Assembly (NCBI GenBank): GCA_964430505.1
Contig: CAYSGH010000010.1
Span: 13,959 to 77,958, forward strand
DNA: 64,000 bases
Direction of reading: 5' to 3'
Source of the DNA: an uncultured Akkermansia sp.
Lineage (GTDB): Bacteria; Verrucomicrobiota; Verrucomicrobiia; Limisphaerales; UBA9464
Shown here: positions 33,899 through 49,171 of the stretch, piece by piece
Layout: every line of letters begins with the position of its first letter
How positions within the stretch are numbered: the first letter of the stretch is position 1
Notes under the pieces: model-generated
The model's database searches: none
Told to the model about the DNA's origin: nothing
The model's input: only the letters and a program-made list of their open reading frames with translations
Program-made: the position numbers and the translations under genes

Positions 33899-34120
33899 GG
33901 GCTCGGCCCCGCACCCGGGGCGTCGAACTCCACGGTGGCGCACGGGGACGCCCGGCGCGAGGGCCCTTCCCATGGCCGTCAGTCATCGCCCTCACGACGT
34001 TGGTTGCCAGCGGTTTTCCCGCCGCCACGCGGGCCTTGAGCCACCGCCGTCCGCCGCGAGCCCATGGAATCCATCCTTGCCGGGCTGACGTCCGGGCGGT
34101 TAGACGTCCGCACCTTGACC

Positions 34121-36940: not shown

Positions 36941-37298
36941 ACCGGCCCCGCTCCCCGCTACCTGCTGCCCGCTTGGCACCTCGCCTCGCGCGTGGCATGG
37001 CCCTGCCTGCCATCCTGCCGGGGCATTCCGAGATTTGTCGTGAAGCAACTGCCGAGGGGTCTTTATCCTTTCGCCTAGAGGACGGTTCCCACGCGGCAAT
37101 GAGCACTCCCTCCAGAACTGCACGAGCGACCTCCCTTGGGGGGCCAAAGACGGGCAACAAGGGATGGGCGAGCCTCTTGCTGGATCGCCTAGGGCGCCCG
37201 CCAAGGCTGTCCTTGGCCGGAACGATTCAGTTGGATCGGTCGTGCTTGGGCGCAGCCCACCGGGTGGGTAGCACCCCCATTCGTTGCTCCGGCCTCCC

Positions 37299-40200
37299 AT
37301 GAATCCCGAAGTCCGCACACCGTCCGGCATCCGGGACAACCACCAACGTGGGACCGTCGGGAACTTTCTGCGTCATCACCTGAGACCGGGAGCCGACCTC
37401 GATCTCGTCACCGCCTACTTCACCGTGTACGCCCATGACCGGTTGAAGTCGGAGCTGGCATCCTTGGGACGCGTTCGTCTCCTCTTTGGGGAGGCCGCCT
37501 TCATCCACACGCTCGACCCGGGCAGGAAGGACGGGGCCGCCTACGTGCTCACCGACGATGGCCTTTCGCTTCCTGCGGGCCTCTCCCAGCGGCACGTCGC
37601 CCGCGCCTGCGCCGACTGGATCCGCGAACGGGTGGAGGTTCGGTCGGTCACGCGCACGGGATTCCTCCACGGCAAGATGTCCCACGTGCGACGCGGCGAG
37701 TTGTCCGCCGCCATTGTGGGCAGCTCCAACTTCACCACGCGCGGCCTCGGGCTCGCCGAGGCCAACAACAACGTGGAGTTGAACCTCGTGGTGAGCGACG
37801 ACCGCGACCGCATGGACCTCGCCACGTGGTTCGAGGAGCTTTGGAACGACCCCGCCCGCGTGGAGGACGTGAAGGCCCGCGTCCTGGAATACCTGTCGCA
37901 GGTCTATCGCGACCAACCCCCCGAGTTCATCTACTTCAAGACGCTGTTCCACCTCTTCAAGCCGTTCCTCGAAAGCGGCACCGACCTCGACGCGGCTCTC
38001 CAGCGGACCACGCTGCTGGAGGCGGCGATCTGGAAGGCCCTGTTCTCCTTCCAGAAGGACGGCGCAAAGGCCGCCATCAACAAGCTGCGCGAGCACGGCG
38101 GATGCATCCTCGCGGACAGCGTCGGACTCGGGAAAACCTTCGAGGCCCTCGCAGTCATCAAGTACTTCGAGCTGAAGAACGAGCGCGTCCTTGTGCTCTG
38201 CCCCAGGAAGCTGGCCGACAACTGGCTCATCTACCGCCAGAACAGCGCCCTCAACCCCTTCGAGAAGGACCGGTTCCGCTACGACGTCCTGCACCACACC
38301 GACCTCTCGCGCGAGTCCGGCCTCTCCAACGGCATCGACCTCGCCTCCCTCAACTGGAGCAACTACGACCTCGTCGTCATCGACGAGTCCCACAACTTCC
38401 GCAACAACACCGTCGGCCCCAAGGGCGACGATGGCCAACCCGTGCGGCGCACGCGTTACGAGCGGCTCATCGAGGACATCATCGGCAAGGGCATTCGCTC
38501 CAAGGTCCTGCTCCTCTCCGCCACCCCGGTCAACAACGAGCTCGCCGACCTCCGCAACCAAATCTCCTTCATCGCAGGTGGCGACGTCGCCCGGGATCCC
38601 AGGGTGGACGCCGCCTTCGCAACCACGCTCGGCGTCCGCAGCCTCAAGGCCACCACCCGCGACGCCCAGGTCCGCTTCACCACGTGGGCCAAGCGCCCCC
38701 CGAACGAACGCGACAAGAAGGACCTCATCCATGTTCTGGGCGGAGACTTCCTCAAGCTCCTCGACGCCCTCACCATTGCCCGGTCCCGCCGCCACATCGC
38801 CACCCATTACGAGGCGGAGATGAAGCGGCTGGGCGGCTTTCCTAAGCGCCTTCCGCCCGCGTCCATCCACTCGGAGATCGACTCGGCGGGGGCCTTCCCC
38901 AGCTACGACGACGTCGCGGCCAAGCTGGACCAGTACAAGCTGTGGCTATTCCGGCCCTCGGAGCACTTGCGCCAGGACCTGCCCCGGGACACGCGGGACG
39001 CCTACGAGCGGCGCATCGGCGGGTTCACCCAGCAAGGCCGCGAGCGCATCCTGACCGGCATGATGCGCGTCAGCCTCCTCAAGCGCCTCGAAAGCTCCAT
39101 CGACTCCTTCCGCATCTCCCTCCGGCGGATGCTGGGGAAGATCGAGCATCTGGAGGCCCGGATGGCGCGCTTCGAGAAGTTCCAGCAGGAGAACCCCAAC
39201 CTCGACCACGACACGCTCGGCCCCGAGGAGCTGGATGACCCCGAGCTGGCGGAGGCCCTGGAGGTGGGCCGCCGGACCACCTTCAAGATGGCCCACCTCG
39301 ACCTCGACCTGTGGCGCGTCCACCTGGCAGACGACCGCCTTCAGCTCAGCGCCTTGCTCCTGCTGGCCGAGCCCATCCATCCCAGCCGCGACGCCAAGCT
39401 CGCGGAGTTGAAGGCCCGGATTGCCAGCAAGGCCCGGAACCCCACCCTGGACAAGGACGGCCAGCCCAACCGCAAGGTCCTCGTCTTCACCGCCTACGCG
39501 GACACCGCCCGCTACCTGTACGACCAGTTGCACCCATGGGCCCGGCAGGAGCTGGGCCTCCATGCCTCATTGGTGGTGGGCAGTGGCGAGAACGCATCCA
39601 CTTACACCGCCTCCACCAGCTTCACCGACGTGCTCCTCGACTTTTCACCCCGCTCCAAGCGGCGTGCCGAGCTTCGCGCAAAGCCCGATTCCGCAGAGGT
39701 GGACCTTCTCGTCGCCTCCGACTGCATCTCCGAGGGCCAAAACCTCCAGGACTGCGACACGGTCATCAATTACGACATCCACTGGAACCCCGTCCGCATC
39801 GTCCAGCGCTTTGGCCGCATCGACCGCATCGGATCCAAGGCCGTCTCCGTTCACCTCGTCAACTTCTGGCCCACCGCGCACCTCGACCGCTACATCAACC
39901 TCAAGCTGCGCGTGGAGGCACGCATGGCGCTGGTGGACCTCGCCGCCACCCAGACCGACAACCCCCTCGACGAGCAGCAGATCGAGGACCTCGTCACCGC
40001 CGACCTGCGCCTCCGAGACCGCCAGCTTGTCCGCCTCAAGGACGAGGTGCTCGACCTCGAAGACCTCGACGACGCCGTCACCCTGGCAGACTTCTCCCTC
40101 GACGACTTCCGCCTCGACCTCCTGCGGTACCTGGAGGCCAACCGTGCGCGGCTCGAACAGGCTCCTTCGGGGCTTTACGCCGTGGTGCCCTCGGTGGCCT

Positions 40201-40649
40201 CCATTCCCATCGCCCAACCCGGGGCCATCTTCTGCCTGCGCCACAAAGGCGGCGAGTCCGCCGCCAAGAACGACAAGGTCAACCCGCTCAATCCGCACTA
40301 CCTGGTGTATGTCCATGCCGACGGCCAGGTGCGGATGACGTTCACGCAGTCCAAGTCCGTCCTGAACCTGTGTCGCGAGCTGGCGCTCGGGAAGACGGAA
40401 CCCTACGCGGAATTCTGCCGCCTGTTTGACCGTCAGACCGAGCAGGGGAGCAACCTGTGCGCCTACGATGACATGCTGCGCAGCGCCGTGACGTCGATCA
40501 CCGCGACGTTCCAACAGAAGCTCGCCGCCGGTTTGCAGAGTGGACGCCAGTTCATCCTGCCCACGCTGGAAGAACAGGTGGCCGCCGATTCAGAGTTCGA
40601 GCTGCTCACTTGGCTCGTGATCCTGTCACCGGCGTCGCCCGGCACCTGA
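37299..40649 (+). CDS. PLD-family (single HKD) nuclease domain fused to a SNF2-type SF2 helicase
   Basis: HKD motif GFLHGKMSHV...AIVGSSNFTTRGLG. SNF2 motifs ILADSVGLGKTFEALAV (I), DLVVIDESHNFRN (II), LLLSATPVNN (III), DCISEGQNLQDC...DIHWNPVRIVQRFGRIDRIGS (V/VI). ATG 37299 is preferred over TTG 37284. Confidence 0.9.
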   Translation: MNPEVRTPSGIRDNHQRGTVGNFLRHHLRPGADLDLVTAYFTVYAHDRLKSELASLGRVRLLFGEAAFIHTLDPGRKDGAAYVLTDDGLSLPAGLSQRHVARACADWIRERVEVRSVTRTGFLHGKMSHVRRGELSAAIVGSSNFTTRGLGLAEANNNVELNLVVSDDRDRMDLATWFEELWNDPARVEDVKARVLEYLSQVYRDQPPEFIYFKTLFHLFKPFLESGTDLDAALQRTTLLEAAIWKALFSFQKDGAKAAINKLREHGGCILADSVGLGKTFEALAVIKYFELKNERVLVLCPRKLADNWLIYRQNSALNPFEKDRFRYDVLHHTDLSRESGLSNGIDLASLNWSNYDLVVIDESHNFRNNTVGPKGDDGQPVRRTRYERLIEDIIGKGIRSKVLLLSATPVNNELADLRNQISFIAGGDVARDPRVDAAFATTLGVRSLKATTRDAQVRFTTWAKRPPNERDKKDLIHVLGGDFLKLLDALTIARSRRHIATHYEAEMKRLGGFPKRLPPASIHSEIDSAGAFPSYDDVAAKLDQYKLWLFRPSEHLRQDLPRDTRDAYERRIGGFTQQGRERILTGMMRVSLLKRLESSIDSFRISLRRMLGKIEHLEARMARFEKFQQENPNLDHDTLGPEELDDPELAEALEVGRRTTFKMAHLDLDLWRVHLADDRLQLSALLLLAEPIHPSRDAKLAELKARIASKARNPTLDKDGQPNRKVLVFTAYADTARYLYDQLHPWARQELGLHASLVVGSGENASTYTASTSFTDVLLDFSPRSKRRAELRAKPDSAEVDLLVASDCISEGQNLQDCDTVINYDIHWNPVRIVQRFGRIDRIGSKAVSVHLVNFWPTAHLDRYINLKLRVEARMALVDLAATQTDNPLDEQQIEDLVTADLRLRDRQLVRLKDEVLDLEDLDDAVTLADFSLDDFRLDLLRYLEANRARLEQAPSGLYAVVPSVASIPIAQPGAIFCLRHKGGESAAKNDKVNPLNPHYLVYVHADGQVRMTFTQSKSVLNLCRELALGKTEPYAEFCRLFDRQTEQGSNLCAYDDMLRSAVTSITATFQQKLAAGLQSGRQFILPTLEEQVAADSEFELLTWLVILSPASPGT

Positions 40650-40660
40650 TCGCCGCGCCC

Positions 40661-42181
40661 ATGGTCGCCAAGCAGTCCATCTTCATCAGCTCCGTCCAGA
40701 AGGACCTGGCCGCCGAGCGCCGGGCCCTGAAGGACTTCGTGCAGGGCGATCCCTTGCTCCGCCAATTCTTCGAGGTGTTCCTGTTCGAGGACTTGCCGGC
40801 CTCGGACCGCCGCGCCGACGAGGTCTATCTGGCCGAGGTGGACCGCTGCGCCCTCTACGTCGGCCTGTTGGGCAACGAATACGGCCGTGAGGACGCGGCC
40901 GGGATTTCGCCCACCGAACACGAGTTCAACCGGGCGACCGCCGCGGGCAAGCCCCGCTTCATCTACGTCCGGGGCACGGATGACTCCGCCCGCCATCCCA
41001 AGATGCGGGCGCTCGTGCGCCGGGCCGGGGACCAGCTCATCCGACGGCGTTTCAGCGGCATCGCTGAACTCAATGCTGCCGTTTACTCCAGCCTGGTGGA
41101 GCTGCTCGGCCACCGGGGAATGCTCCGCACGGTGCCGTTTGATGCAGCAGCCTGCCCCGGGGCCACGCTGGCCGACATGGTGCCTGACAAGGTTGGGGCG
41201 TTTCTGGCCCGGGCCGGCCACACGCGCGGCTACGCGCTGGCGCCCGGCACCCCCATGTCCGACGCCCTGACGCACCTGAACCTGCTCGACGGGGAGACGC
41301 CCAATCACGCCGCCCTGTTGCTGTTTGGCCGGGACCCGCAGCGCTGGCTCATTTCCTCGGCCGTGAAGTGCCTGCATTTTCACGGCGCCGAAGTGCGCAA
41401 GCCGATCCCCTCCCACCAGGTGTATCGCGGCACCGTGTTCGATCTCGTGGACCAGGCGGTGGACTTCGTGATGTCCAAGGTCGCCCGTTCGGTCGGCACC
41501 CGGGCCGCCTCCAATGCCGTCCCGGTCGCCTACGAACTGCCCCGCGAGGCGGTGGCCGAAGCCATCGTCAACGCCGTGGCCCACCGCGACTACGCCTCCA
41601 ACGCCTCCGTGCAGGTCATGCTGTTCGCCAACCGCCTGGAAGTGTGGAATCCCGGCGAACTGCCCGCCTCGCTGACCCCCGAGCGACTCACCCGTCCCCA
41701 TGCGTCCATTCCGCGGAATCCGCTGCTGGCCGGACCGCTGTTCCTCGCGGGCTACATCGAGCAGGCCGGCACCGGCACGCTCGACATGATTGCCCGCTGC
41801 CGCGACGCGGGACTACGGGCGCCGGAATTCCACCAGGATGGCGCCAGCTTCATCCAGACTCTCTGGAGACCGGCACCGGAAGTCAGCCCACAGGATACAG
41901 GGCAAGTCACGGGGCAAGTCACGGGGCAAGTCACGGGGCAAGTCAGCCGGGAAGTGGAGCGCCTGCTCCGCGTGTTGGACGGCGAGATGACGCGGTTGGA
42001 AATCCAGGAACGCCTCGACCTCAAAGGCCGGGCCAACTTCGAGGAACGCTATCTCCAGCCAGCGCTTCAGGGAGGCCACGTTGAACGCACCATTGCCGAC
42101 AAGCCCCAAAGCCGCCTCCAAAGATACCGCCTCACCGCCCAGGGCCGCGCCTGGCGGGTGAGCCAATCCAAGAGCACCTGA
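40661..42181 (+). CDS. DUF4062-like N-terminal domain fused to a RecG-like ATP-binding (HATPase_c_4) / winged-helix putative regulator
   Basis: N-terminal SIFISSVQKDLAAERRALKDFV...EVYLAEVDRCALYVGLLGNEYG (DUF4062-like). Middle AALLLFGRDPQRWL...KCLHFHG. EAIVNAVAHRDYASNASVQVMLFANRLEVWNPG...IEQAGTGTLDM (HATPase_c_4-like). (GQVT)x4 linker. C-terminal RLEIQERLDLKGRANFEERYLQPAL wHTH-like tail. Confidence 0.8.
   Translation: MVAKQSIFISSVQKDLAAERRALKDFVQGDPLLRQFFEVFLFEDLPASDRRADEVYLAEVDRCALYVGLLGNEYGREDAAGISPTEHEFNRATAAGKPRFIYVRGTDDSARHPKMRALVRRAGDQLIRRRFSGIAELNAAVYSSLVELLGHRGMLRTVPFDAAACPGATLADMVPDKVGAFLARAGHTRGYALAPGTPMSDALTHLNLLDGETPNHAALLLFGRDPQRWLISSAVKCLHFHGAEVRKPIPSHQVYRGTVFDLVDQAVDFVMSKVARSVGTRAASNAVPVAYELPREAVAEAIVNAVAHRDYASNASVQVMLFANRLEVWNPGELPASLTPERLTRPHASIPRNPLLAGPLFLAGYIEQAGTGTLDMIARCRDAGLRAPEFHQDGASFIQTLWRPAPEVSPQDTGQVTGQVTGQVTGQVSREVERLLRVLDGEMTRLEIQERLDLKGRANFEERYLQPALQGGHVERTIADKPQSRLQRYRLTAQGRAWRVSQSKST
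41900..41947 (+). repeat. In-frame 12-nt tandem repeat (gggcaagtcacg x4) encoding (GQVT)4
   Basis: Four consecutive units read directly from the sequence. The last unit is degenerate (gggcaagtcagc). Confidence 0.92.
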
Positions 42182-42188
42182 TTTCCTC

Positions 42189-42404
42189 ATGCCTTCCCAT
42201 CCCGAGCTTCTGCCGCGGACCAAGTCCGCCCTTGGCGCTGGCGACCGCCGGCTTCGGTGTGCCGTGACCTCAAGCATCGCGACGTCCCCGCAGAAGCTCG
42301 CCGCAGGGTTGCCGAGCCGCCGCCCGTTCCTCCTGCCCACACGGGACAAAAAGGTGGCAGCCGATTCCGAGTTTGAGCTGCTGACCTGGTTCCTCATTCT
42401 CTAG
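42189..42404 (+). pseudogene. 71-codon ORF whose last 47 codons are a diverged duplicate of the helicase C-terminus (relic or small helicase-tail protein)
   Basis: 42261-42401 aligns codon-for-codon with 40485-40625 (AVTSSIATSPQKLAAGLPSRRPFLLPTRDKKVAADSEFELLTWFLIL versus AVTSITATFQQKLAAGLQSGRQFILPTLEEQVAADSEFELLTWLVIL). By hand, 33 of 47 codons are identical. Confidence 0.5.
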
Positions 42405-42475
42405 CCATGAGACCCGCCGACATGAGCATGGGCTCCCAAGTCACTCACATCCCTACACACAAGCAGTAAGGTCTC

Positions 42476-45400
42476 ATGCCCGACCCAAACTTCCGACAAC
42501 AGCTTGCGGATGCTCTTTCCGACTTTGCCCGCGCGCCCTTGGCCGAGGCTTCGACCACGTTCTTCGGCAAGCTCGGCTACGGCAGCAAGCGGCGTCTCCA
42601 GTTTCCTTCGCTGACGGGGCTGCTCGCACAGTTCGACACGTCTGGCAGCGTGGCGGAAAAGCTGCCCAAGACTGGCTCCAAGAGCCCGGTCACCGTGGTG
42701 CAACTTACCAGTGAAGAAATCGCCGCAAACTCCGGTGGACAGTTGGCTTCGCTTGCCGGCAGCGGAGCCGACCTTCGCCAGATCGAGTCTTACCTCTTCC
42801 TCACGATTGCCCTGCCGGAATCGGACTACACCCGCACTCAACTGGCGGACTACGCCCGCGCCATTAATTCGCTGTTTCCCCAGCCGGTTCTCGTCCTGTT
42901 CCAGCACGGCGGGACAATCTCGTTGGCGATCACCTACCGGCGCACCAACAAGCGCGATGCTTCTCGGGATGTTATCGCCCGGAAGGTCACGCTCATCCGC
43001 GATATTGCCTGCGCTCAACCGCACTCCGGCCACCTTGCGATTCTCGAAGACTTCTCGCTTCCTGCACTATCCCGTGCCCGCCAACGCGACATCCGTAGTT
43101 TCGCCGACCTCGACGACGCCTGGCGCGAATCGCTTTCCACGCAGCTTCTCAATCGGGAGTTCTACCGCGAAATCGCCAACTGGTATTTCTGGGCGCGCGA
43201 ACACGCGATCTTTCCGAAGGACGCTCCGCTCGACGCCGACGGCAAGCCTTCGCTTCCGCTAATTCGACTGCTGACCCGCCTGATCTTCTGCTGGTTTCTG
43301 CGCGAGAAGTCGCTCCCCGGACTCGGCACGCTTATCCCGGCGGACTTGTTCGATTCGGCCTGCATCCGCCGTTTCCTGCGCGATTCCTCGCCGGAGGCCA
43401 CCACCTATTACACCGGCATCCTCCAGAATTTGTTTTTTGCGACTCTCAACGCCGAGATGGACGAGCCGGGCCGGCCGCAGAAGCGCCACTTTATCGGCGA
43501 AGGGGAGGAGGACGAGGCGGATGAGCACTTCAACGCCGCCGTCTGGCGCAACAAAAGGCTGCTGGCCAAGGATGCCGAAACGGAGGTTGAAACGCTCTTC
43601 CGACGCATTCCCTTCCTCAACGGCGGTCTCTTTGAATGCCTCGACGAACCCGTCTTCGACCAGAAGGGCAAGAAGACCGGCGAAAAACGCGTGGACGGTT
43701 TCTCAACCAAACCTTCCAAGCAGGCGAGGGTTCCCAATTTCCTCTTCTTTGGTCCCGACCAAACCGTGGACCTGTCCGGCACCTACGGCGACAGCTCGCG
43801 GCGGCAGGAAACCGTCAGGCCATTGCTGGAGATCTTTCGCGGCTACAAATTCACCCTCACCGAAAACACGCCCATCGAGGAAGAAGTCGCGCTGGACCCT
43901 GAGTTGCTTGGCCACGTTTTCGAGAACCTCCTCGCCGCCTTCAATCCCGAGACCGGAACCATCGCCCGAAAGGCCACCGGTTCCTTCTACACGCCGCGAG
44001 TCGTGGTGGACTGGATGGTGGACGAAGCCCTTGTCGCCTACCTCACCGGGCGCGTTCCCGCTGCGACCGAAGCGCAAGTTCGCGACCTGCTTTCATGGGA
44101 ACGCGACACGCATGAGATCCCTCCCGAGACCGTTTCTTCCCTGGTTGACGCAGTGGACTCGCTCAAGTCGCTCGACCCCGCGTGTGGTTCGGGTGCTTTC
44201 CCAATGGGACTGCTGCAAAAGCTGGTTCACCTCCTCCGCAAGCTTGACCCCAACAACAAACAATGGCGTGCGCGGCAACAGGCTGCGGTCGAGGCGATGG
44301 ATAGTTCCACCGCGAGGGAGGTGGCGTTCGCCGCCTTGGAAAAGGCGTTCGCCCACGACGAGGACGACTATGGTCGCAAGCTCTACCTCATCGAGAACTG
44401 CCTCTACGGCGTGGACATCCAACCCATCGCCGTCCAGATAGCGAAGCTGCGGTTCTTCATCGCCCTCGTTGTCGAGCAAACCATCGCGCCTGACCGGTTC
44501 AACTACGGCATCCTTCCGCTGCCCAACCTCGAAACGAAGATTGTCGCAGCCAACACACTCCTGGGGCTGCGGCGCGGCCAGCTCATGCTGGGATCGAATG
44601 AAGTCCGCTCCCTTGAGGGACAGCTTCAACGTGTGCGCCATGACTACTTCACCGCACGTCGCTACACGGACAAGAAGGCGCTGCGAACGCGTGATCGTGA
44701 ACTCTGCCGCAAATTGGCCACGGCGCTGGCCAGCAGCGGCGAATGCTCGCCTGCCGACGCACAGCGCCTGGCCGACTGGAATCCCTATGACACCAACCGC
44801 GAGGCTCCGTTCTTCGACCCGGGCTGGATGTTCGGCCTTGCGGTCGGCCGACAGCGCCCCAGCGCGGCGACACTGCGCGGCAACCTGGCCGCCATCGTCA
44901 ACCGGACGGCGGGGCAGATGGAGTTGGGCGCTGCGCCTCCGCCCGATCCGGGCTTCGACATCATCCTGGGCAACCCGCCTTATGTCCGTCAGGAGGAGCT
45001 GAAAAACGTGAGCGTAACAGACAGCGCTGGCCGCCCGCGCCCGCTCAAGGAGGTGCTCAAGGAGCAATACGAATGCTTCACCGGCACCGCCGACCTCTAC
45101 GTCTATTTCATCGAGCGCTCCCTCCAGCTCCTCCGCATCGGCGGCGTCCTCAGCTTCATCACCAGCAACAAGTACTTCCGCGCCGCCTATGGCGAACGCC
45201 TTCGCGCCTACCTCCTCTACGCAACCCGCCCGCGCGTGCTCCTCGATTTCGGCGACGCCCCGCTCTTCACCGCCATCGCCTATCCCTGCATCCTCGTGGT
45301 GCAAAAGACCCGCGCCTTGGAAAAGGGCGGGCTGCCTCCAACGGATAAATTCCAAAACGAGACGACCTTCCGCCAGCTCATCTCAGACGAGGCGGCGGCC

Positions 45401-46588
45401 TCGAAGATCCGAGTCTTCCCGTGGACGCCAGGCCCGCCACTCCGCGACTTCCCGGCGATCTTTGAAGAGAAAAGTTTCAATCTCGAACAACGCGAGCTGA
45501 AACCCGGTGGGTGGAAGTTCCAATCGGATGCAAACCGAAGTGTTCGGCGACGAATGGAGCAGGGATCGAACCCCCTCGGCAAATTTACGGGCGATTTAGT
45601 GATTAATGGGGTTAAGTCAGGCGGCAAAGACGCATTCGTGCTTTCTACTAAGGAACGGGATGCCCTGCTAAAGCTTGAGCCGCAGGCCGGGCGCATCGTC
45701 CGTCGCCTGCTCAAGGGCAGAGACATTAAGCGATGGTGCGTAACTGAGGAAGATCGGTGGCTAATTTACATGCCTTGGCATTTTCCATTGAACGATGACG
45801 CGACAATTACCCGCGCCAGCAAGAAGGCAGAAGATGAGTTCAAAGCAAAGTATCCGGCGACCTATGCTCATCTTGCGCAGTTCAAGGATATGTTGTCGGC
45901 GCGAGACCAAGCGGAGACTGGAATTCGCTATGAGTGGTATTGCTTAGCCCGACCGCGGCCGGAAGCTGAGCCGTTCTTCTCAAAGCCTAAAATTGCTTTC
46001 CCAGATATCGCTGCTGCGCCGTGCTTCGCTTGGGATGAGGGTGACCACGCTATTGAAAACACTGCATATTTGATCCCAGGCAATAAGTGGATTCTTGGCG
46101 TGCTGAACTCGCCGGCAGTATTTTGGTATTGCCTTCAAATCAGCAACACAATTCGTGGCGGCTACGTTCGCTTCATTCGCCAGTATGTGGAACAAATTCC
46201 CATTCCAACAGCAAGCGCCGAGGAACAACAGTGGTGCGAGCGATTGGCGGAAGCGTTGATTTTCCTGCACCGCCCGGAAGTGGCCGCTGGGGCGGGGGCC
46301 GCGCCGGTGAGCCTGATGGCCGCGTGGTTCGAGCAGTGGCTGAACGGGCTGGTCTATGAGCTTTTCTTCCGCGCGGAGCTCCACGCTCGCCACCTCCGCC
46401 TCTTCGAGGAAACCGCCAAACCCACCAGCGCCCCGCCCGCCCTTGCCCCGCTACGCGACGACCCCGCGAAGCTCGCCGCTCTCCAAGCCTGCTTCGAGCG
46501 GACCTACGACGTCAACCACCCCCTCCGGGCCATGCTCTTCTCCCTCCGCTCCCTCGAACCCATCCGCATCATCGAAGGCGAGGCATGA
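42476..46588 (+). CDS. Large gamma-class N6-adenine DNA methyltransferase (Eco57I/PglX/DrmMI-like) with a C-terminal target-recognition region
   Basis: Motif I LDPACGSGAFPMGLL (about residue 566) precedes motif IV ILGNPPYVRQEE (about residue 831). Eco57I-type YVYFIERSLQLLRIGGVLSFITSNKYF. TaqI_C-like LKGRDIKRWCVTEEDRWLIYMPW. 1370 aa. Confidence 0.9.
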   Translation: MPDPNFRQQLADALSDFARAPLAEASTTFFGKLGYGSKRRLQFPSLTGLLAQFDTSGSVAEKLPKTGSKSPVTVVQLTSEEIAANSGGQLASLAGSGADLRQIESYLFLTIALPESDYTRTQLADYARAINSLFPQPVLVLFQHGGTISLAITYRRTNKRDASRDVIARKVTLIRDIACAQPHSGHLAILEDFSLPALSRARQRDIRSFADLDDAWRESLSTQLLNREFYREIANWYFWAREHAIFPKDAPLDADGKPSLPLIRLLTRLIFCWFLREKSLPGLGTLIPADLFDSACIRRFLRDSSPEATTYYTGILQNLFFATLNAEMDEPGRPQKRHFIGEGEEDEADEHFNAAVWRNKRLLAKDAETEVETLFRRIPFLNGGLFECLDEPVFDQKGKKTGEKRVDGFSTKPSKQARVPNFLFFGPDQTVDLSGTYGDSSRRQETVRPLLEIFRGYKFTLTENTPIEEEVALDPELLGHVFENLLAAFNPETGTIARKATGSFYTPRVVVDWMVDEALVAYLTGRVPAATEAQVRDLLSWERDTHEIPPETVSSLVDAVDSLKSLDPACGSGAFPMGLLQKLVHLLRKLDPNNKQWRARQQAAVEAMDSSTAREVAFAALEKAFAHDEDDYGRKLYLIENCLYGVDIQPIAVQIAKLRFFIALVVEQTIAPDRFNYGILPLPNLETKIVAANTLLGLRRGQLMLGSNEVRSLEGQLQRVRHDYFTARRYTDKKALRTRDRELCRKLATALASSGECSPADAQRLADWNPYDTNREAPFFDPGWMFGLAVGRQRPSAATLRGNLAAIVNRTAGQMELGAAPPPDPGFDIILGNPPYVRQEELKNVSVTDSAGRPRPLKEVLKEQYECFTGTADLYVYFIERSLQLLRIGGVLSFITSNKYFRAAYGERLRAYLLYATRPRVLLDFGDAPLFTAIAYPCILVVQKTRALEKGGLPPTDKFQNETTFRQLISDEAAASKIRVFPWTPGPPLRDFPAIFEEKSFNLEQRELKPGGWKFQSDANRSVRRRMEQGSNPLGKFTGDLVINGVKSGGKDAFVLSTKERDALLKLEPQAGRIVRRLLKGRDIKRWCVTEEDRWLIYMPWHFPLNDDATITRASKKAEDEFKAKYPATYAHLAQFKDMLSARDQAETGIRYEWYCLARPRPEAEPFFSKPKIAFPDIAAAPCFAWDEGDHAIENTAYLIPGNKWILGVLNSPAVFWYCLQISNTIRGGYVRFIRQYVEQIPIPTASAEEQQWCERLAEALIFLHRPEVAAGAGAAPVSLMAAWFEQWLNGLVYELFFRAELHARHLRLFEETAKPTSAPPALAPLRDDPAKLAALQACFERTYDVNHPLRAMLFSLRSLEPIRIIEGEA

Positions 46589-48582
46589 GAATTACGCGAA
46601 TCGTCCTAAACGACTTCCGGGGATTTCCGGGGCAGGCCAATTTCGAATTCCGGCTTGATGGCAGTAACCTACTGCTCTTCGGCGAAAATGGGAGCGGCAA
46701 ATCCTCGCTGTTCGTCGCGCTGCGCGAATTCTTCGACCTCAGAATGAATCCGGCACCTTTCGGCCGGTTTCGCAACGTTTTCACGCGTGATGCGACTGGC
46801 CAACCGCTGACTTGTGGAAGGGTCGGTGTGGAGTTCGACGACGGCACGGGGTTGCACACATGGGACATCGTGAACGATGTGCGACCGCACGCCGCGCAAC
46901 CGGTAGCCGATACCGCACTGCGCTTTGGAGCGGTTGATTACCGCGCGATGCTGAAGACGAACTTCGTCCATGAAAGCGGCTATCCGAACCTATTCGACTT
47001 GCTGGTGAACGGGGTCCTGAACCGGATGCCCGTGTTGGTGGCAGGCGGTGCTCAAACCACATTGGGAGATCTCGATGCGCGGATGAGGGCCGCGAAGCCT
47101 GAACGGCATTACCCTAGTCAACTTGCCAAAGTCGATGCCGCATGTCTTGCGCTCAACCAAGCGCTGCAAAATCACCTCCCGCAGGTCGTCGCCACAGCGA
47201 ACCAGATTCTCTCTGTGTTTGGAAACATCGGAGTCACGTTTCAGCTCATTCCTCCACCACTCCCGGTGAACCCACCGCAGGATCCCGCTCCAGCCAATCC
47301 ACCCCACCTTCGCTACGATCGGGCAGCCCGGAACTTCAAGAACATGAAGATTGACTTCGTGGCGCAACTCAATGGCCATGGCCCTGACGAGCCTCAGCAC
47401 TTTCTCAACGAGGCGCGACTGTCCGCAATTGCGATCTCGATCTATCTGGCGGCGCTGCGGGCAAGCATGCCTCCCAATCCCGTCGGCGCGAATCCGCCCG
47501 CGAAAGTCATGCTACTGGACGATGTTCTCATCGGCCTCGACATGTCGAATCGCCAACCGATCCTCGACGTTCTTACCCGAGTTGATCGCCCGAATGCACC
47601 GGGATTCGCTGATTGGCAGGTGCTCCTGCTTACCCACGATCAGGGATGGTATTCACTTGCTCGCAGGCGACTCAGGAACTGGCGCGCGGTGCGCCTCGCA
47701 TCAGGCCACAGTGGAACCTACGACGTGCCGATCCTCTATGACGACACGTCTCTAATTGAACGTGCTGTGCATCATCTTAACGTCTCCGGCGATGAACGCG
47801 CCGCAGGAGTGTATCTGCGAACCGCGTTTGAGGAGATGATTAAGTCGTTTTGCGCCCGGACGCGAACCCCAGTCGCTTACCACCGGGCTGATGAGCACCC
47901 GAAGTCGACCAATGTATTCTGGCAACCGATCTGCGCCGTCAAGGTAGGACGCGTACTTTTGATCGATGCTGGATTGAAACGGGACGTGGAATCAGCCCGC
48001 AGCAATGTCGCCAACCCGTTGTGCCATTTCGGGAACAGTATGCCATTGTACAGCGAGACGGTGAGCGCGATTTCCATCCTGCGTCGGCTACAAATTCGAC
48101 TTGATTCGTATCCAGACAAAAATGCTGATCCGCCACAGCACCCTCGCACTGCGCTGGATTTGGCGCAGGAGGCCTGCGCGGCGGCGGCCAATTTTTCCCC
48201 TTGGACTGCCGCTGTCCACTTGAGATCGGCTTTCGACGATTCCGTTTCTAGGCTGGCAGCAAGGTGGAGCGTCCAAGTGACTTACTCCATCAACTTGTTG
48301 GACTTTGCGACACAGCGCCTTTGGAACCTGCTGCGGCAAGCTCCCAGCGGCCTAGCAACGACTCATGCAACACACGTTGCCGGCATACACGCGCACTCGG
48401 ATATTTTTCTTCAAGAGTTGGATCCAACCGCCATAGCTCGACGCAATCAGGGCTACTTCCAATCAGCTCTTTTAGCTTTGCTCCATTCGGGAACTCCTGT
48501 GCCCGGCCTTCCGTCTCCTGGCTTAAGTTCGGCAACGGCTGCGTCATCTTCGTCTACAACGTGGCTAGATGCTGTTCCGTAA
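46585..48582 (+). CDS. ABC-type (AAA_13/PrrC-RloC-like) ATPase with an unassigned C-terminal domain of about 300 aa
   Basis: The ATG overlaps the MTase stop (ATGA at 46585-46588). Walker A LFGENGSGKSSLF, signature-like FLNEARLSAIAISIYLAAL, Walker B/D-loop VMLLDDVLIGLDMSNR, H-loop VLLLTHDQGWY. The C-terminal half has YLRTAFEEM and NVANPLCHFGNS. Confidence 0.8.
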   Translation: MRITRIVLNDFRGFPGQANFEFRLDGSNLLLFGENGSGKSSLFVALREFFDLRMNPAPFGRFRNVFTRDATGQPLTCGRVGVEFDDGTGLHTWDIVNDVRPHAAQPVADTALRFGAVDYRAMLKTNFVHESGYPNLFDLLVNGVLNRMPVLVAGGAQTTLGDLDARMRAAKPERHYPSQLAKVDAACLALNQALQNHLPQVVATANQILSVFGNIGVTFQLIPPPLPVNPPQDPAPANPPHLRYDRAARNFKNMKIDFVAQLNGHGPDEPQHFLNEARLSAIAISIYLAALRASMPPNPVGANPPAKVMLLDDVLIGLDMSNRQPILDVLTRVDRPNAPGFADWQVLLLTHDQGWYSLARRRLRNWRAVRLASGHSGTYDVPILYDDTSLIERAVHHLNVSGDERAAGVYLRTAFEEMIKSFCARTRTPVAYHRADEHPKSTNVFWQPICAVKVGRVLLIDAGLKRDVESARSNVANPLCHFGNSMPLYSETVSAISILRRLQIRLDSYPDKNADPPQHPRTALDLAQEACAAAANFSPWTAAVHLRSAFDDSVSRLAARWSVQVTYSINLLDFATQRLWNLLRQAPSGLATTHATHVAGIHAHSDIFLQELDPTAIARRNQGYFQSALLALLHSGTPVPGLPSPGLSSATAASSSSTTWLDAVP

Positions 48583-48931
48583 TTACAAGAGCCAGAATTC
48601 CCTATGTTCGCGACGGAGTCACGGCTGTCATGCCGGGGTTAGGCTGGTCTTAAGGTCGTTGATTGGCCCCCTTGTGAACATCACGACGGTTCTTTCAGAT
48701 CCCGCATCCTTCATCAGTCATGGCGAGGCATTGTACCAACTCATTTTGACTGTAGAAGCGCCACGTAGTGAGGGCGATGGCAAAAGAATTTGTTTGAACG
48801 GCCGTATTGAGTTGGTTCCCGTGGTCGATGGTTTGTGTTTGCCTCGATTCACTGGATAGAAAAGCCGGTACAAAGACTCCATCAGCATCGCGGGCACGTA
48901 GGCTCCCCAGTCGCAAGCCAGCCCCTGGACT

Positions 48932-48991
48932 AGTACCCGCCCCCCCCGCCTCCCGCCCCTCGCTTCCCGCTTCCCGCCTCCCGCTTCCCCG
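48932..48991. repeat. G-rich intergenic element, copy 2 (C-rich on the plus strand)
   Basis: The reverse complement ...GGCGGGAAGCGGGAAGCGAGGGGCGGGAGGCGGGGGGGGCGGGTACT matches 29531-29575. The first 18 nt are identical, and identity is about 85% over about 47 nt by hand alignment. Confidence 0.8.
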
Positions 48992-49171
48992 TCCTGTCGC
49001 TCCGGCACGCCGGGCTTGCCATCTCGCGTGGGTGGGCCTTCATGCTCGCATCGGGCCGTTGCGCGCGGGGCGTGACGGCCCGCCGGGCGAAGTATTTCCT
49101 AACAAAGGCCCGCCTCGTGCGTCATCCGAAGGGGCGCGGCAGGGGCGGCGCGCCCGGAAATGGGAACGAGC

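What the first reader, a model, noticed from the sequence alone, without database searches (positions are those of the whole stretch)
46585..48582. Methylase-coupled ABC ATPase with a PrrC/RloC-like layout and an unassigned C-terminal half
The N-terminal ~350 aa carry ABC motifs in the AAA_13 style: GENGSGKSS; LNEARLSAIAISIYLAAL in the signature position; VMLLDDVLIGLD; LLLTHD. The remaining ~300 aa match nothing I recognise.

That C-terminal half contains an R-x3-E (YLRTAFEEM) and a later N-x3-H (NVANPLCHFG). This is reminiscent of the Arg/Glu/His residues described for the PrrC anticodon-nuclease domain, although the spacing differs.

PrrC is the classic case of an ABC-ATPase/ribonuclease embedded in, and silenced by, an RM locus. 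Here the ATGA overlap with the methylase stop implies stoichiometric co-expression. The gene may therefore be an abortive-infection backup triggered when the RM-like module is inhibited. It is also the lowest-GC gene of the island.
Basis: inference. Interest (0 to 1): 0.65.

Follow-up and report, generated by a model that had tools for sequence, protein, structure and literature searches.

The report
ABC ATPase fused to HEPN-like nuclease
The gene encodes an ATP-driven switch protein fused to a probable RNA-cutting (HEPN-like) domain, made together with the DNA methylase of a restriction-like phage-defence island, so it resembles the classic PrrC "suicide RNase" but belongs to a separate, unnamed and widespread family.

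Summary
The 665-aa ORF at 46585-48582, every quoted motif and the ATGA overlap with the methylase stop are all there. It is also the lowest-GC gene of the island.

Residues 1-385 are an SMC/Rad50-type ABC ATPase head (AF2 pLDDT 90). The unassigned C-terminal half is not a coiled coil. It is two tandem copies of one helical domain.
- Copy 2 (520-640) is a degenerate duplicate that has lost N and H.

Copy 1 looks like a HEPN domain by fold and by weak end-to-end Pfam matches, all below significance thresholds.

The family is large (at least 758 clusters at 50% identity, many phyla) and no Pfam, NCBIfam or PADLOC model covers its C-terminus. The gene almost always follows, often with a 4-nt overlap, a protein ending in a TaqI_C recognition domain plus a C-terminal tail. 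That protein is usually an Eco57I-type methylase next to a PLD-SNF2 helicase-nuclease, and sometimes a TPR or TIR-TPR protein.

PrrC-like function is plausible but untested, and membership of the PrrC/RloC family is not supported. I rate it a new variant of a known kind, of moderate interest.

The parts
46585..48582 (+). Whole gene: ABC ATPase fused to tandem HEPN-like domains (665 aa)
   Evidence: ORF and translation. More than 1900 homologues. AF2 pLDDT 90.2, pTM 0.80.
46585..46588 (+). ATGA start/stop overlap with the methylase gene
   Evidence: Sequence read directly. The same 4-nt overlap with the upstream ORF is inferred in 36 of 79 related genome loci.
46585..47739 (+). ABC ATPase head (aa 1-385), SMC/Rad50/RecF-like, with a single 36-aa helix (177-212) instead of a long coiled coil
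   Evidence: Foldseek against PDB: SMC1A, Rad50, RecN and RecF heads and the retron I-A ATPase, E down to 5.6e-11. Secondary structure from AF2. Sub-threshold Pfam SMC_N, AAA_23, AAA_15 and AAA_21 hits.
46675..46710 (+). Walker A / P-loop, LFGENGSGKSSL
   Evidence: G33, E34, N35, G36, G38 and K39 are invariant.
47401..47454 (+). Motif in the ABC-signature position (FLNEARLS..., a variant of LSGGQ)
   Evidence: N275, E276 and L279 are invariant. Assignment to the signature position is by its place in the fold (inference).
47503..47541 (+). Walker B plus D-loop (MLLDDVLIGLD), with Asp313 where ABC ATPases usually have the catalytic Glu
   Evidence: L311, D312, D313, G317 and D319 are invariant.
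47620..47640 (+). H-loop / switch region (VLLLTHD)
   Evidence: Q345, T350 and D352 are invariant; His351 is the majority residue.
47740..48114 (+). HEPN-like module 1 (aa 386-510), the putative active domain
   Evidence: AF2 shows helices 390-399, 404-426, 443-450 and 462-476, a hairpin, and helix 489-507. HEPN proteins recur among the Foldseek hits. Pfam HEPN matches run end to end but stay below threshold.
47818..47832 (+). R412-x3-E416 in helix 1, followed by K420 (E-x3-K)
   Evidence: R 113/113 and E 112/113. Position 420 is K, R or Q in 110/113.
48013..48027 (+). N477-P-L-x-H481 in the loop after helix 3, preceded by R472
   Evidence: N and H 113/113. R472 is R in 89 and K in 9 of 113.
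48142..48504 (+). HEPN-like module 2 (aa 520-640), a degenerate duplicate of module 1; absent from the ~480-aa short forms
   Evidence: hhalign of module 1 against module 2: probability 99%, E 1.9e-17, 117 columns. It keeps LR..AF[DE] but has lost N..H.
48505..48579 (+). Pro/Ser-rich linker and a short C-terminal W-L-D-type motif
   Evidence: Alignment of the long forms. The last block is modelled with pLDDT 92. Function unknown.
42476..46588 (+). Partner gene: Eco57I-family (type IIG-like) N6-adenine DNA methylase, 1370 aa, with DPACGSGAF and NPPY motifs
   Evidence: Pfam Eco57I 1.2e-32 and TaqI_C 7e-14. PADLOC REase_MTase_IIG 1.7e-77. Motifs located.
45707..46585 (+). TaqI_C recognition domain plus C-terminal tail of the methylase (aa 1078-1370), the part that co-occurs with the ABC gene
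   Evidence: Methylase homologues with the tail have an ABC gene downstream in 21 of 25 loci; those without it in 1 of 28 (Fisher p 7.7e-10). In the split or replaced variants only this segment is kept next to the ABC gene.
37284..40649 (+). PLD (HKD-type) nuclease fused to an SNF2 helicase, the likely DNA-restriction effector of the island
   Evidence: Pfam PLDc_2, SNF2-rel_dom and Helicase_C. PADLOC C3a139 'HKD+Snf2' 9.2e-123. Found upstream of the methylase in most related loci.
40610..42181 (+). Accessory gene: DUF4062 + HATPase_c_4 + Fic-like_C winged helix (the Schlafen-type module seen beside BREX-like systems)
   Evidence: Pfam. Present in only a minority of related loci, for example L080. 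Described as a widespread accessory gene in PMC12839542.

Best explanation
The gene encodes the ATP-switch/effector subunit of a restriction-like defence island made of a PLD-SNF2 helicase-nuclease, a type IIG-like N6-adenine methylase and this protein.

Shown:
- An SMC/Rad50-type ABC ATPase head is followed by two tandem copies of one helical domain.
- The first copy carries an invariant R-x3-E...N-x3-H set.
- The second copy is degenerate.
- The gene is translationally coupled to a protein that ends in a TaqI_C recognition domain plus a C-terminal tail, and it co-varies with that tail.

Inferred:
- The helical domain is a divergent HEPN domain, that is, a metal-independent RNase.
- The protein docks on the methylase's recognition domain and tail, and is held latent there.
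- ATP binding makes the ABC heads engage. With Asp replacing the catalytic Glu after Walker B, hydrolysis may be slow.
- Head engagement would bring HEPN modules together into an active site.
- RNA cleavage (tRNA, mRNA or rRNA) would then stop translation.
- That would act either as a second-line abortive response when the DNA-targeting arm is blocked (the PrrC logic), or as a co-effector fired when the recognition domain reports foreign DNA.
For: - ABC head: AF2 pLDDT 90.2, Foldseek hits to SMC, Rad50, RecN and RecF heads at E 5.6e-11, and invariant Walker A, Walker B, D-loop and switch residues.
- C-terminal active-site-like set: R412, N477 and H481 are 113/113 and E416 is 112/113, in a domain that is otherwise about 27% identical.
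- HEPN-like, by fold: among the top 50 PDB hits of the C-terminal model, HEPN proteins recur with the best target TM-scores. These are 1wol (prob 0.92, TMt 0.59), 1o3u (0.63), 2q00 (0.71), HepT 5yep and 6m6w, 7ae6, 4nqf and Csm6.
- HEPN-like, by sequence: the weak Pfam hits cluster in HEPN-related families. DUF4145 matched 5 members, HEPN 3 (best 4.5e-4), plus Las1, HEPN_AbiA_CTD and PaREP1. Two matches cover the HEPN profile end to end, positions 7-114 and 12-110 of 117.
- E416-x3-K420 fits the E-x3-[KR] feature of HEPN helix 1 (PMC3710099).
- PrrC's catalytic candidates are R320-x3-E324 and H356 (PMC1484252).
- Tandem duplication: hhalign probability 99%.
- Coupling to the partner: methylase directly upstream in distant phyla; 4-nt overlap in 36 of 79 loci; tail against ABC presence 21/25 versus 1/28, p 7.7e-10; the ABC gene stays with TaqI_C+tail when that segment is fused to TPR or TIR-TPR instead.
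- Defence context: PADLOC and NCBIfam hits of the neighbours, and the GC-poor island.
Against: - No HEPN match is statistically significant. Foldseek E-values are at least 1.2, the best Pfam HEPN score seen is 17.8 bits against a cut-off of 22, and a profile search of PDB sequences found nothing.
- The canonical HEPN R-x4-6-H spacing is not met. It is R472-x8-H481, and R472 is only 79% R.
- I could not align the domain with real PrrC or RloC sequences, so equivalence of the R/E/H residues is by pattern only. The E-to-H spacing is 65 residues here against 32 in PrrC.
- I could not inspect model coordinates, so clustering of the four residues in space is not shown.
- No data on RNase activity, toxicity, complex formation or phage defence.
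- The gene is close to universal within its methylase subclade. That fits a core subunit as well as an accessory 'backup'.
Confidence: 0.55

Rival explanations
1. The protein is a core, non-suicidal subunit of the restriction machine. It would work as an ATP-dependent DNA clamp, scanner or licensing factor, like Mad3 in MADS, BrxC/DUF499 in BREX-related systems or DndD/PbeC. It would couple target recognition by the methylase's recognition domain to the PLD-SNF2 nuclease. The HEPN-like domain would bind nucleic acid or the partner protein rather than cleave RNA.
For: - The gene is present in 21 of 25 loci of its methylase subclade and is translationally coupled, which looks like an obligate subunit.
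- The best PADLOC hit is Mad3, E 1.3e-9, covering two stretches of an ABC head. mad3 is needed for MADS defence, while plasmids grown in a mad3 deletion strain were used as the methylated stock (bioRxiv 10.1101/2023.03.30.534895).
- Analogous ATPase + methylase + helicase-nuclease triads are described as BREX-related systems (PMC12839542).
- Some HEPN domains are non-catalytic, for example MtlR (PMC3710099).
Against: - Four invariant polar residues of the kinds used by metal-independent RNases (Arg, Glu, Asn, His), in an otherwise fast-evolving domain, are more typical of an active site than of a binding surface.
- The duplicated module lost exactly N and H while keeping the fold. This is the usual pattern for an active/inactive pair.
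- The same dyad occurs with TPR or TIR-TPR partners that have no methylase domain. In one of these loci (L010) the neighbouring helicase-nuclease is NERD + UvrD-like rather than PLD-SNF2.
- The match to the Mad3 model is confined to generic ABC motifs.
Confidence: 0.27
2. The C-terminal half is only a structural dimerisation or coiled-coil domain (SMC/RecF-like) with no catalytic or sensing role.
For: The region is all-helical. ABC ATPases of this clade often carry helical dimerisation inserts. No significant database match was found.
Against: - AF2 predicts two compact helical bundles, not a coiled coil (pLDDT 86-90).
- Invariant R, E, N and H.
- The best structural neighbours are HEPN domains, not SMC hinge or coiled-coil regions.
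- The only coiled-coil-position insert is one 36-aa helix inside the head.
Confidence: 0.06
3. The HEPN-like domain is catalytic, but its substrate is not cellular RNA. It might act on DNA, on a nucleotide second messenger, or on phage RNA only, so the system would not be abortive.
For: Substrate cannot be read from sequence. The TIR-containing partner variants hint at nucleotide-signal chemistry in related loci.
Against: The characterised catalytic HEPN domains reviewed in PMC3710099 are RNases. The window protein has no recognisable ligand-sensing domain such as CARF.
Confidence: 0.1

Closest known systems
PrrC anticodon nuclease of E. coli (and RloC), Pfam AAA_13
   Same: An N-terminal ABC-type NTPase is fused to a C-terminal helical RNase-type domain. 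An R-x3-E pair is followed by an essential His (PrrC R320, E324, H356; PMC1484252). The nuclease domain is assigned to the HEPN superfamily (PMC3710099). The gene is embedded in, and presumably controlled by, a DNA modification/restriction locus.
   Different: - No AAA_13 match.
- E-to-H spacing is 65 residues against 32.
- There is an extra invariant Asn and a second, degenerate domain copy.
- There is no RloC-type long coiled coil or zinc hook.
- The partner is a type IIG-like methylase (its TaqI_C domain and tail) plus a PLD-SNF2 protein, not a type Ic HsdMSR enzyme.
- Coupling is by start/stop overlap.
Other ABC-HEPN fusions listed by Anantharaman et al. 2013 (APECO1_4465, ERFG_01251)
   Same: The same general architecture, and a predicted role as a suicidal RNase regulated by an ABC ATPase, often near R-M genes (PMC3710099).
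   Different: I could not obtain these sequences to compare. Those families are described in prophages or near CRISPR-Cas loci, not downstream of Eco57I-type methylases.
BREX-related (BR) / Hma systems: DUF499 ATPase (often HEPN-fused) + N6-methylase + helicase-nuclease (PMC12839542, PMC8565338)
   Same: The same three-part logic: an ATPase carrying a HEPN domain, an N6-adenine methylase and a helicase-nuclease. Type-2 BR systems also use an N-terminal HKD nuclease fused to an SNF2 helicase. Schlafen-type accessory genes sit beside these systems too.
   Different: The ATPase here is an ABC head of about 385 aa, not a DUF499/ORC-Cdc6-type AAA+ protein. The HEPN-like domain is C-terminal, not N-terminal. 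None of the four island genes scanned is DUF3780. HmaA similarity is weak (E 4.2e-25) next to the C3a139 model (9.2e-123).
MADS (methylation-associated defence system), Mad3
   Same: An ABC-like ATPase encoded beside the system's methylase. Mad3 is the best PADLOC hit of the window protein.
   Different: The hit covers only the generic ABC motifs. The window methylase scores 24.9 bits against a MAD2 cut-off of 720. None of the four island genes scanned returned a model for the mandatory mad6-8 genes. The Mad3 model (374 positions) has no counterpart of the HEPN-like region.
PARIS (AriA ABC ATPase + AriB TOPRIM nuclease) and Septu / retron-Eco7 PtuA-PtuB
   Same: An ABC ATPase controls a nuclease. 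In published cases that nuclease cuts host tRNA after sensing a phage anti-restriction protein or other trigger (PMC11464382, PMC12673091, as indexed). There are weak N-terminal PADLOC hits to PtuA and AriA, and the retron I-A ATPase is among the Foldseek hits.
   Different: In those systems the nuclease is a separate TOPRIM or HNH protein. Here it is a fused HEPN-like domain, and the partner is a methylase.

Membership tests
PrrC/RloC (Pfam AAA_13, PF13166) | Sequence match to the AAA_13 family model at its gathering score | tested here: not met
   No AAA_13 hit at E <= 0.01 for the window protein. 18 of 64 relatives have weak hits, best E 1.1e-5.
PrrC/RloC (Pfam AAA_13, PF13166) | N-terminal ABC-type NTPase motifs (Walker A, signature, Walker B, switch His) | tested here: met
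   Invariant motifs and an ABC head fold. The signature is the variant LNEAR, and Walker B is followed by Asp rather than Glu.
PrrC/RloC (Pfam AAA_13, PF13166) | C-terminal Arg-x3-Glu ... His catalytic triad (PMC1484252) | tested here: inconclusive
   The pattern is present and invariant (R412, E416, H481). The spacing differs, and no alignment with PrrC sequences could be made.
PrrC/RloC (Pfam AAA_13, PF13166) | Genetic linkage to a type Ic hsdMSR enzyme (PrrC), or a long coiled coil with zinc hook (RloC) | tested here: not met
   The neighbours are a PLD-SNF2 protein and an Eco57I-type methylase. Only a single 36-aa helix is inserted in the head.
PrrC/RloC (Pfam AAA_13, PF13166) | tRNA anticodon-loop cleavage activity | not testable with these tools
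   Needs biochemistry or tRNA sequencing.
HEPN superfamily | Four-helix up-down bundle with structural similarity to solved HEPN domains | tested here: inconclusive
   The AF2 bundle is confident. HEPN proteins are the recurrent best-fitting PDB hits (TMt 0.59-0.71, prob up to 0.92), but all have E >= 1.2.
HEPN superfamily | R-x4-6-H motif before or at the start of the last core helix | tested here: not met
   The spacing is R472-x8-H481, with R472 at 79% R. The invariant pair is N477-x3-H481.
HEPN superfamily | Conserved acidic residue in helix 1, typically E-x3-[KR] (PMC3710099) | tested here: met
   E416 is 112/113. Position 420 is K in 78, R in 15 and Q in 17 of 113.
HEPN superfamily | Match to a Pfam HEPN-clan model at its gathering score | tested here: not met
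   Best E 4.5e-4. Best bit score seen is 17.8 against a cut-off of 22, although the match covers profile positions 7-114 of 117. The window protein itself has no hit.
ABC ATPase superfamily (SMC/Rad50/RecF-like heads) | Walker A, Walker B, D-loop and H-loop in an ABC head fold | tested here: met
ABC ATPase superfamily (SMC/Rad50/RecF-like heads) | Catalytic Glu immediately after the Walker B Asp | tested here: not met
   D313 is invariant at that position. The consequence for hydrolysis is inferred only.
BREX-related type-2 / Hma system (PMC12839542) | DUF499 (ORC/Cdc6-type) ATPase and DUF3780 protein beside the methylase and the HKD-SNF2 helicase | tested here: not met
   The HKD-SNF2 protein and the N6-methylase are present. 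The ATPase is an ABC head, and none of the four island genes scanned matches DUF499 or DUF3780.
DISARM class 1 | DrmA helicase and DrmB (DUF1998) together with DrmD, DrmMI and DrmC | tested here: not met
   There are only partial DrmD and DrmMI similarities, far below the NCBIfam cut-offs (154.5 against 610). The four island genes returned no DUF1998/DrmB match and only a weak DrmA-model hit, E 2.6e-20, on the SNF2 helicase.
MADS | Orthologues of the MAD2 methylase and the mandatory MAD6-8 | tested here: not met
   MAD2 scores 24.9 bits against a cut-off of 720. The Mad3 hit is limited to ABC motifs. No mad6-8 model appears for any island gene among the hits shown.

The most novel reading that the evidence does not exclude
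The conserved unit is not 'methylase plus guard'. It is a portable two-protein module: a TaqI_C-type DNA recognition domain with a C-terminal docking tail, paired with the ABC-HEPN protein. Evolution has plugged this dyad onto different front ends (an Eco57I-type methylase, a TPR array, TIR-TPR) and beside different DNA nucleases (PLD-SNF2, NERD-UvrD). It would be a sequence-specific DNA sensor that converts occupancy or methylation state of a DNA motif, through an ABC ATP switch, into RNA cleavage. That would be a previously unnamed abortive-infection module.
Probability: 0.2. Interest if true: 0.75.

Novelty: new variant of a known kind. Interest (0 to 1): 0.55.

Why it matters
ABC-ATPase-controlled nucleases such as PrrC, RloC, PARIS and Septu/retron PtuAB are a recurring way for bacteria to turn failure of a first-line defence into translational shutdown. 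This family would add a widespread member (at least 758 clusters at 50% identity, found in Poribacteria, Cyanobacteria, Bacteroidota, Proteobacteria, Verrucomicrobia, Acidobacteria, Planctomycetes and others). It has no model in Pfam, NCBIfam or PADLOC, so current defence-finders annotate it only as 'AAA family ATPase'.

It offers four obvious catalytic residues to mutate, a natural active/degenerate domain pair, and a clear candidate docking partner (the methylase tail). That makes the 'how does an R-M enzyme silence its RNase guard' question testable in a two-gene construct. It also gives the PLD-SNF2 + type IIG-like methylase systems a defined third component.

Tried and rejected
- Is the ~185-aa gene downstream of the short forms the missing module 2? 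No. The L003 and L010 downstream proteins are unrelated to each other and to residues 506-665.
- Sequence searches of the PDB found only Walker A-level ABC hits with the whole protein, and nothing relevant with the C-terminal profile.
- PADLOC, NCBIfam and Pfam gave no hit on residues 370-665 of the window protein.
- Foldseek of the C-terminal model against viral structures (BFVD) gave nothing meaningful.
- The profile search of 1.84 billion representatives was meant to find the domain in other architectures. Full-length hits in the top 150 carry it at the C-terminus of ~480- or ~640-aa proteins, and the shorter hits may be fragments, so no clearly different architecture was seen.
- I tried to read Krishnan et al. 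2020 (ABC ATPase classification, NAR 48:10045), which may already describe this clade. It is not held.
- I could not obtain PrrC, RloC or APECO1_4465 sequences with the available collections, so there is no direct profile-profile comparison.
- Hma, DISARM, MADS and PbeABCD were each considered as the system's identity and rejected on missing defining components (see the membership rows).
- No tRNA gene marks the island border.
- Plasmid collection: the closest methylase homologues (no more than 44% identity, partial) have other downstream genes, such as a hypothetical protein plus a TIR protein. This shows the third component is exchangeable.

Full report
**1. Observation**

The window is about 70% GC. 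A GC-poorer island runs from roughly 37.0 to 49.0 kb. It holds four co-directional genes:
- 37284-40649: a PLD(HKD)-SNF2 helicase-nuclease (PADLOC C3a139 'HKD+Snf2', E 9.2e-123).
- 40610-42181: a DUF4062 + HATPase_c_4 + winged-helix accessory protein.
- 42476-46588: a 1370-aa Eco57I/TaqI_C (type IIG-like) N6-adenine methylase.
- 46585-48582: the 665-aa target.

The ATGA overlap with the methylase stop is real. The target is the lowest-GC gene of the island at 57.2% (GC3 0.62), at the end of a steady decline along the operon.

**2. The family**

The protein has more than 1900 homologues with E < 1e-3. They fall into two size classes:
- about 480 aa, covering residues 1 to ~505 of the query;
- about 640 aa, full length.

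Sources name them only 'AAA family ATPase', 'ATP-binding protein' or similar. In a 64-sequence alignment with 31% mean column identity, the invariant residues fall into two groups:
- ABC motifs: G33-E-N-G-x-G-K39; N275, E276 and L279 in the signature position; L311-D312-D313 with G317 and D319; Q345, T350 and D352.
- C-terminal residues: exactly R412, E416, N477 and H481, with C423, L476, E491 and A495 at 90% or more.

Over 113 distinct sequences, R412, N477 and H481 are 113/113 and E416 is 112/113.

**3. Structure**

AF2 with the family alignment gives a confident model (pLDDT 90.2, pTM 0.80).
- Residues 1-385 form an ABC head. Its best PDB neighbours are SMC1A, Rad50, Smc2/4, RecN and RecF heads and the retron I-A ATPase (E down to 5.6e-11). 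A single 36-aa helix sits where SMC proteins have their coiled coil.
- The Walker B Asp is followed by an invariant Asp instead of the usual catalytic Glu. This suggests a slow, switch-like ATPase (inference).
- The C-terminal half consists of two compact helical bundles, 390-507 and 523-632. It is not a coiled coil.

Profile-profile comparison shows that bundle 2 is a duplicate of bundle 1 (hhalign probability 99%, E 1.9e-17 over 117 columns). Bundle 2 keeps the LR..AF[DE] helix but has lost the N..H motif. The short forms lack it entirely.

**4. What the C-terminal domain is**

No library model matches the window protein's C-terminus. Three weaker lines of evidence all point to the HEPN superfamily.
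- Fold: with the C-terminal model (pLDDT 86.5), the PDB hits with the best fit to the target are HEPN proteins. These are 1wol (prob 0.92, TMt 0.59), 1o3u, 2q00 (TMt 0.71, rmsd 3.6), HepT (5yep, 6m6w), 7ae6, 4nqf and Csm6. All have E >= 1.2.
- Weak Pfam hits: scanning 38 C-terminal sequences one by one, the recurrent weak hits are DUF4145 (5 members), HEPN PF05168 (3, best 4.5e-4), Las1, HEPN_AbiA_CTD and PaREP1. In two module-1 sequences the HEPN match covers profile positions 7-114 and 12-110 of 117, but scores 17.8 bits against a cut-off of 22.
- Motifs: helix 1 carries E416-x3-K420, the E-x3-[KR] feature of HEPN domains (PMC3710099).

The canonical R-x4-6-H motif is not met. The family has R472-x8-H481, with an invariant N477-x3-H481 in the loop after helix 3.

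PrrC's catalytic candidates are R320-x3-E324 and H356 (PMC1484252), and its nuclease domain has been assigned to HEPN (PMC3710099). Residue equivalence was not established, because I could not obtain PrrC sequences.

I put the HEPN assignment at about 0.8, and catalytic RNase function at somewhat less.

**5. Genomic context**

*Loci selected through the ABC protein.* Eighty genome loci from many phyla were selected through the ABC protein. The genes immediately upstream break down as follows:
- 47 loci: a full or near-full Eco57I-type methylase with an NPPY-type motif (44 match the window methylase; 3 are too diverged to align).
- 19 loci: a protein that shares only the last ~350 residues of the window methylase (TaqI_C plus tail).
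- 13 loci: some other ORF.
- 3 loci: no upstream ORF could be scored, because the contig ends there.

The SNF2 helicase, usually with the PLD domain, lies upstream of that in most loci. The upstream ORF overlaps the ABC start by exactly 4 nt in 36 of 79 loci. A 39%-identical short form in a deltaproteobacterial MAG has the same PLD-SNF2 / methylase / ABC order and the same overlap.

*Loci selected through the methylase.* This control avoids selecting on the ABC gene. Among the 80 metagenome loci kept, 53 have at least 2 kb downstream.
- Methylase homology reaches the last ~15 residues of the window methylase: ABC gene downstream in 21 of 25.
- Methylase homology stops earlier: ABC gene downstream in 1 of 28.
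- Fisher p = 7.7e-10, not corrected for phylogeny.

*Variants.* Two variants were examined in detail.
- In Poribacteria locus L010 the upstream protein is TPR + TaqI_C + tail, preceded by a NERD + UvrD-like helicase.
- In L008 it is TIR + about 20 TPR + TaqI_C + tail, next to a tail-less methylase.

The conserved partner of the ABC-HEPN-like protein is therefore the TaqI_C recognition domain plus its C-terminal tail, whatever is fused in front of it. That points to a physical complex (inference).

On plasmids, more distant SNF2 + methylase pairs carry other third genes, for example a hypothetical protein plus a TIR protein. The third component is exchangeable.

**6. Mechanism**

*Shown:*
- the domain architecture;
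- the invariant residues;
- the tandem duplication;
- the conserved coupling to the recognition domain and tail;
- the defence-island context.

*Inferred:*
- The protein sits on the methylase's recognition domain and tail in a latent state.
- ATP-driven engagement of two ABC heads brings HEPN modules together. In long forms, this could also involve rearrangement of the intact/degenerate pair.
- The R/E/N/H site then cleaves RNA and arrests translation.

The data do not decide what fires it. One option is loss of the DNA-targeting arm to a phage inhibitor (PrrC logic; the PARIS precedent is PMC11464382). Another is the recognition domain meeting unmodified target DNA. A third is that the protein is mainly a licensing ATPase for the PLD-SNF2 nuclease, as mad3 is required for MADS defence (bioRxiv 10.1101/2023.03.30.534895). 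Its near-universal presence within its methylase subclade fits a core subunit at least as well as an optional backup.

**7. Comparison with known systems**

It works like PrrC/RloC and the other ABC-HEPN fusions (PMC3710099), but it fails the AAA_13 model test. It also lacks type I hsd linkage and the RloC coiled coil.

The locus parallels BREX-related/Hma systems (HEPN-bearing ATPase + N6-methylase + helicase-nuclease; PMC12839542, PMC8565338). However, it uses an ABC head instead of DUF499, and none of the island genes scanned is DUF3780.

It is not DISARM, MADS or PbeABCD. The defining components are absent or score far below cut-offs.

Krishnan et al. 2020, which classifies ABC ATPases in R-M-like systems, could not be read. 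Prior description of this clade there cannot be excluded.

**8. Verdict**

The architecture and the key residues are right. 'AAA_13 style' and membership of the PrrC family are not supported. The abortive-backup role is plausible but untested.
- It is a new variant of a known kind: an unnamed, widespread ABC-HEPN-like family (at least 758 clusters at 50% identity with E <= 1e-3) tied to TaqI_C-tail partners in PLD-SNF2/methylase islands.
- Interest is moderate, 0.55.

Noticed in passing
window 48569-48859 (+): A 96-codon ORF starts 14 nt before the ABC stop. It is homologous to the N-terminus of ~440-470-aa proteins encoded just downstream of long-form ABC genes in L090 and L091. L143 carries a match to a more central part of those proteins. 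These proteins end in what reads like an HNH motif (C-x2-C ... HH ... C-x2-C-H-x2-H). Pfam finds nothing. The window appears to keep only a truncated remnant of this fifth gene at the island's right edge.
   Followed up: partly
window 37284-48582: GC3 falls steadily along the operon: PLD-SNF2 0.895, accessory gene 0.844, methylase 0.738, ABC 0.619. This suggests the methylase/ABC end is a more recent or differently sourced acquisition than the helicase end.
   Followed up: partly
window 40610-42181 (+): A DUF4062 + HATPase_c_4 + Fic-like_C winged-helix gene lies between the helicase and the methylase. It is a second candidate RNA-targeting accessory effector (Schlafen-type, as described beside BREX-like systems). 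It is present in only a minority of related loci; L080 from Geminisphaera colitermitum is nearly identical in layout.
   Followed up: partly
L008 6240-10004; L010 6164-10004: In Poribacteria, the gene overlapping the ABC start is TIR + ~20 TPR + TaqI_C + tail (L008) or TPR + TaqI_C + tail (L010). The L010 gene is preceded by a NERD + UvrD-like helicase. Neither ABC partner protein has a methylase domain; L008 carries a separate tail-less methylase just upstream.
   Followed up: partly
window 37284-40649 (aa ~129-151): The PLD motif of the helicase-nuclease reads HGKMSHVR...GSSNFT. His, Lys and GSxN are present, but there is no Asp at the usual +7 position of H-x-K-x4-D. The likely true start is the ATG 15 nt downstream of the listed TTG.
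   Followed up: no
window 34064-36940 (+): A type IA DNA topoisomerase with C-terminal Toprim_Crpt repeats lies immediately upstream of the island. No tRNA gene or obvious integrase marks the border.
   Followed up: no
window 49160-55654 (+): A 2164-aa ORF in 72% GC DNA directly after the island has no Pfam hit. A 1732-aa ORF runs antisense to it. Gene callers on other contigs also call the + strand ORF (2160 aa). Its nature is unknown.
   Followed up: no
window ~48925-48995: A polypyrimidine tract of CCCGC/TTCCCG-type repeats sits at the right-hand border of the GC-poor island.
   Followed up: no
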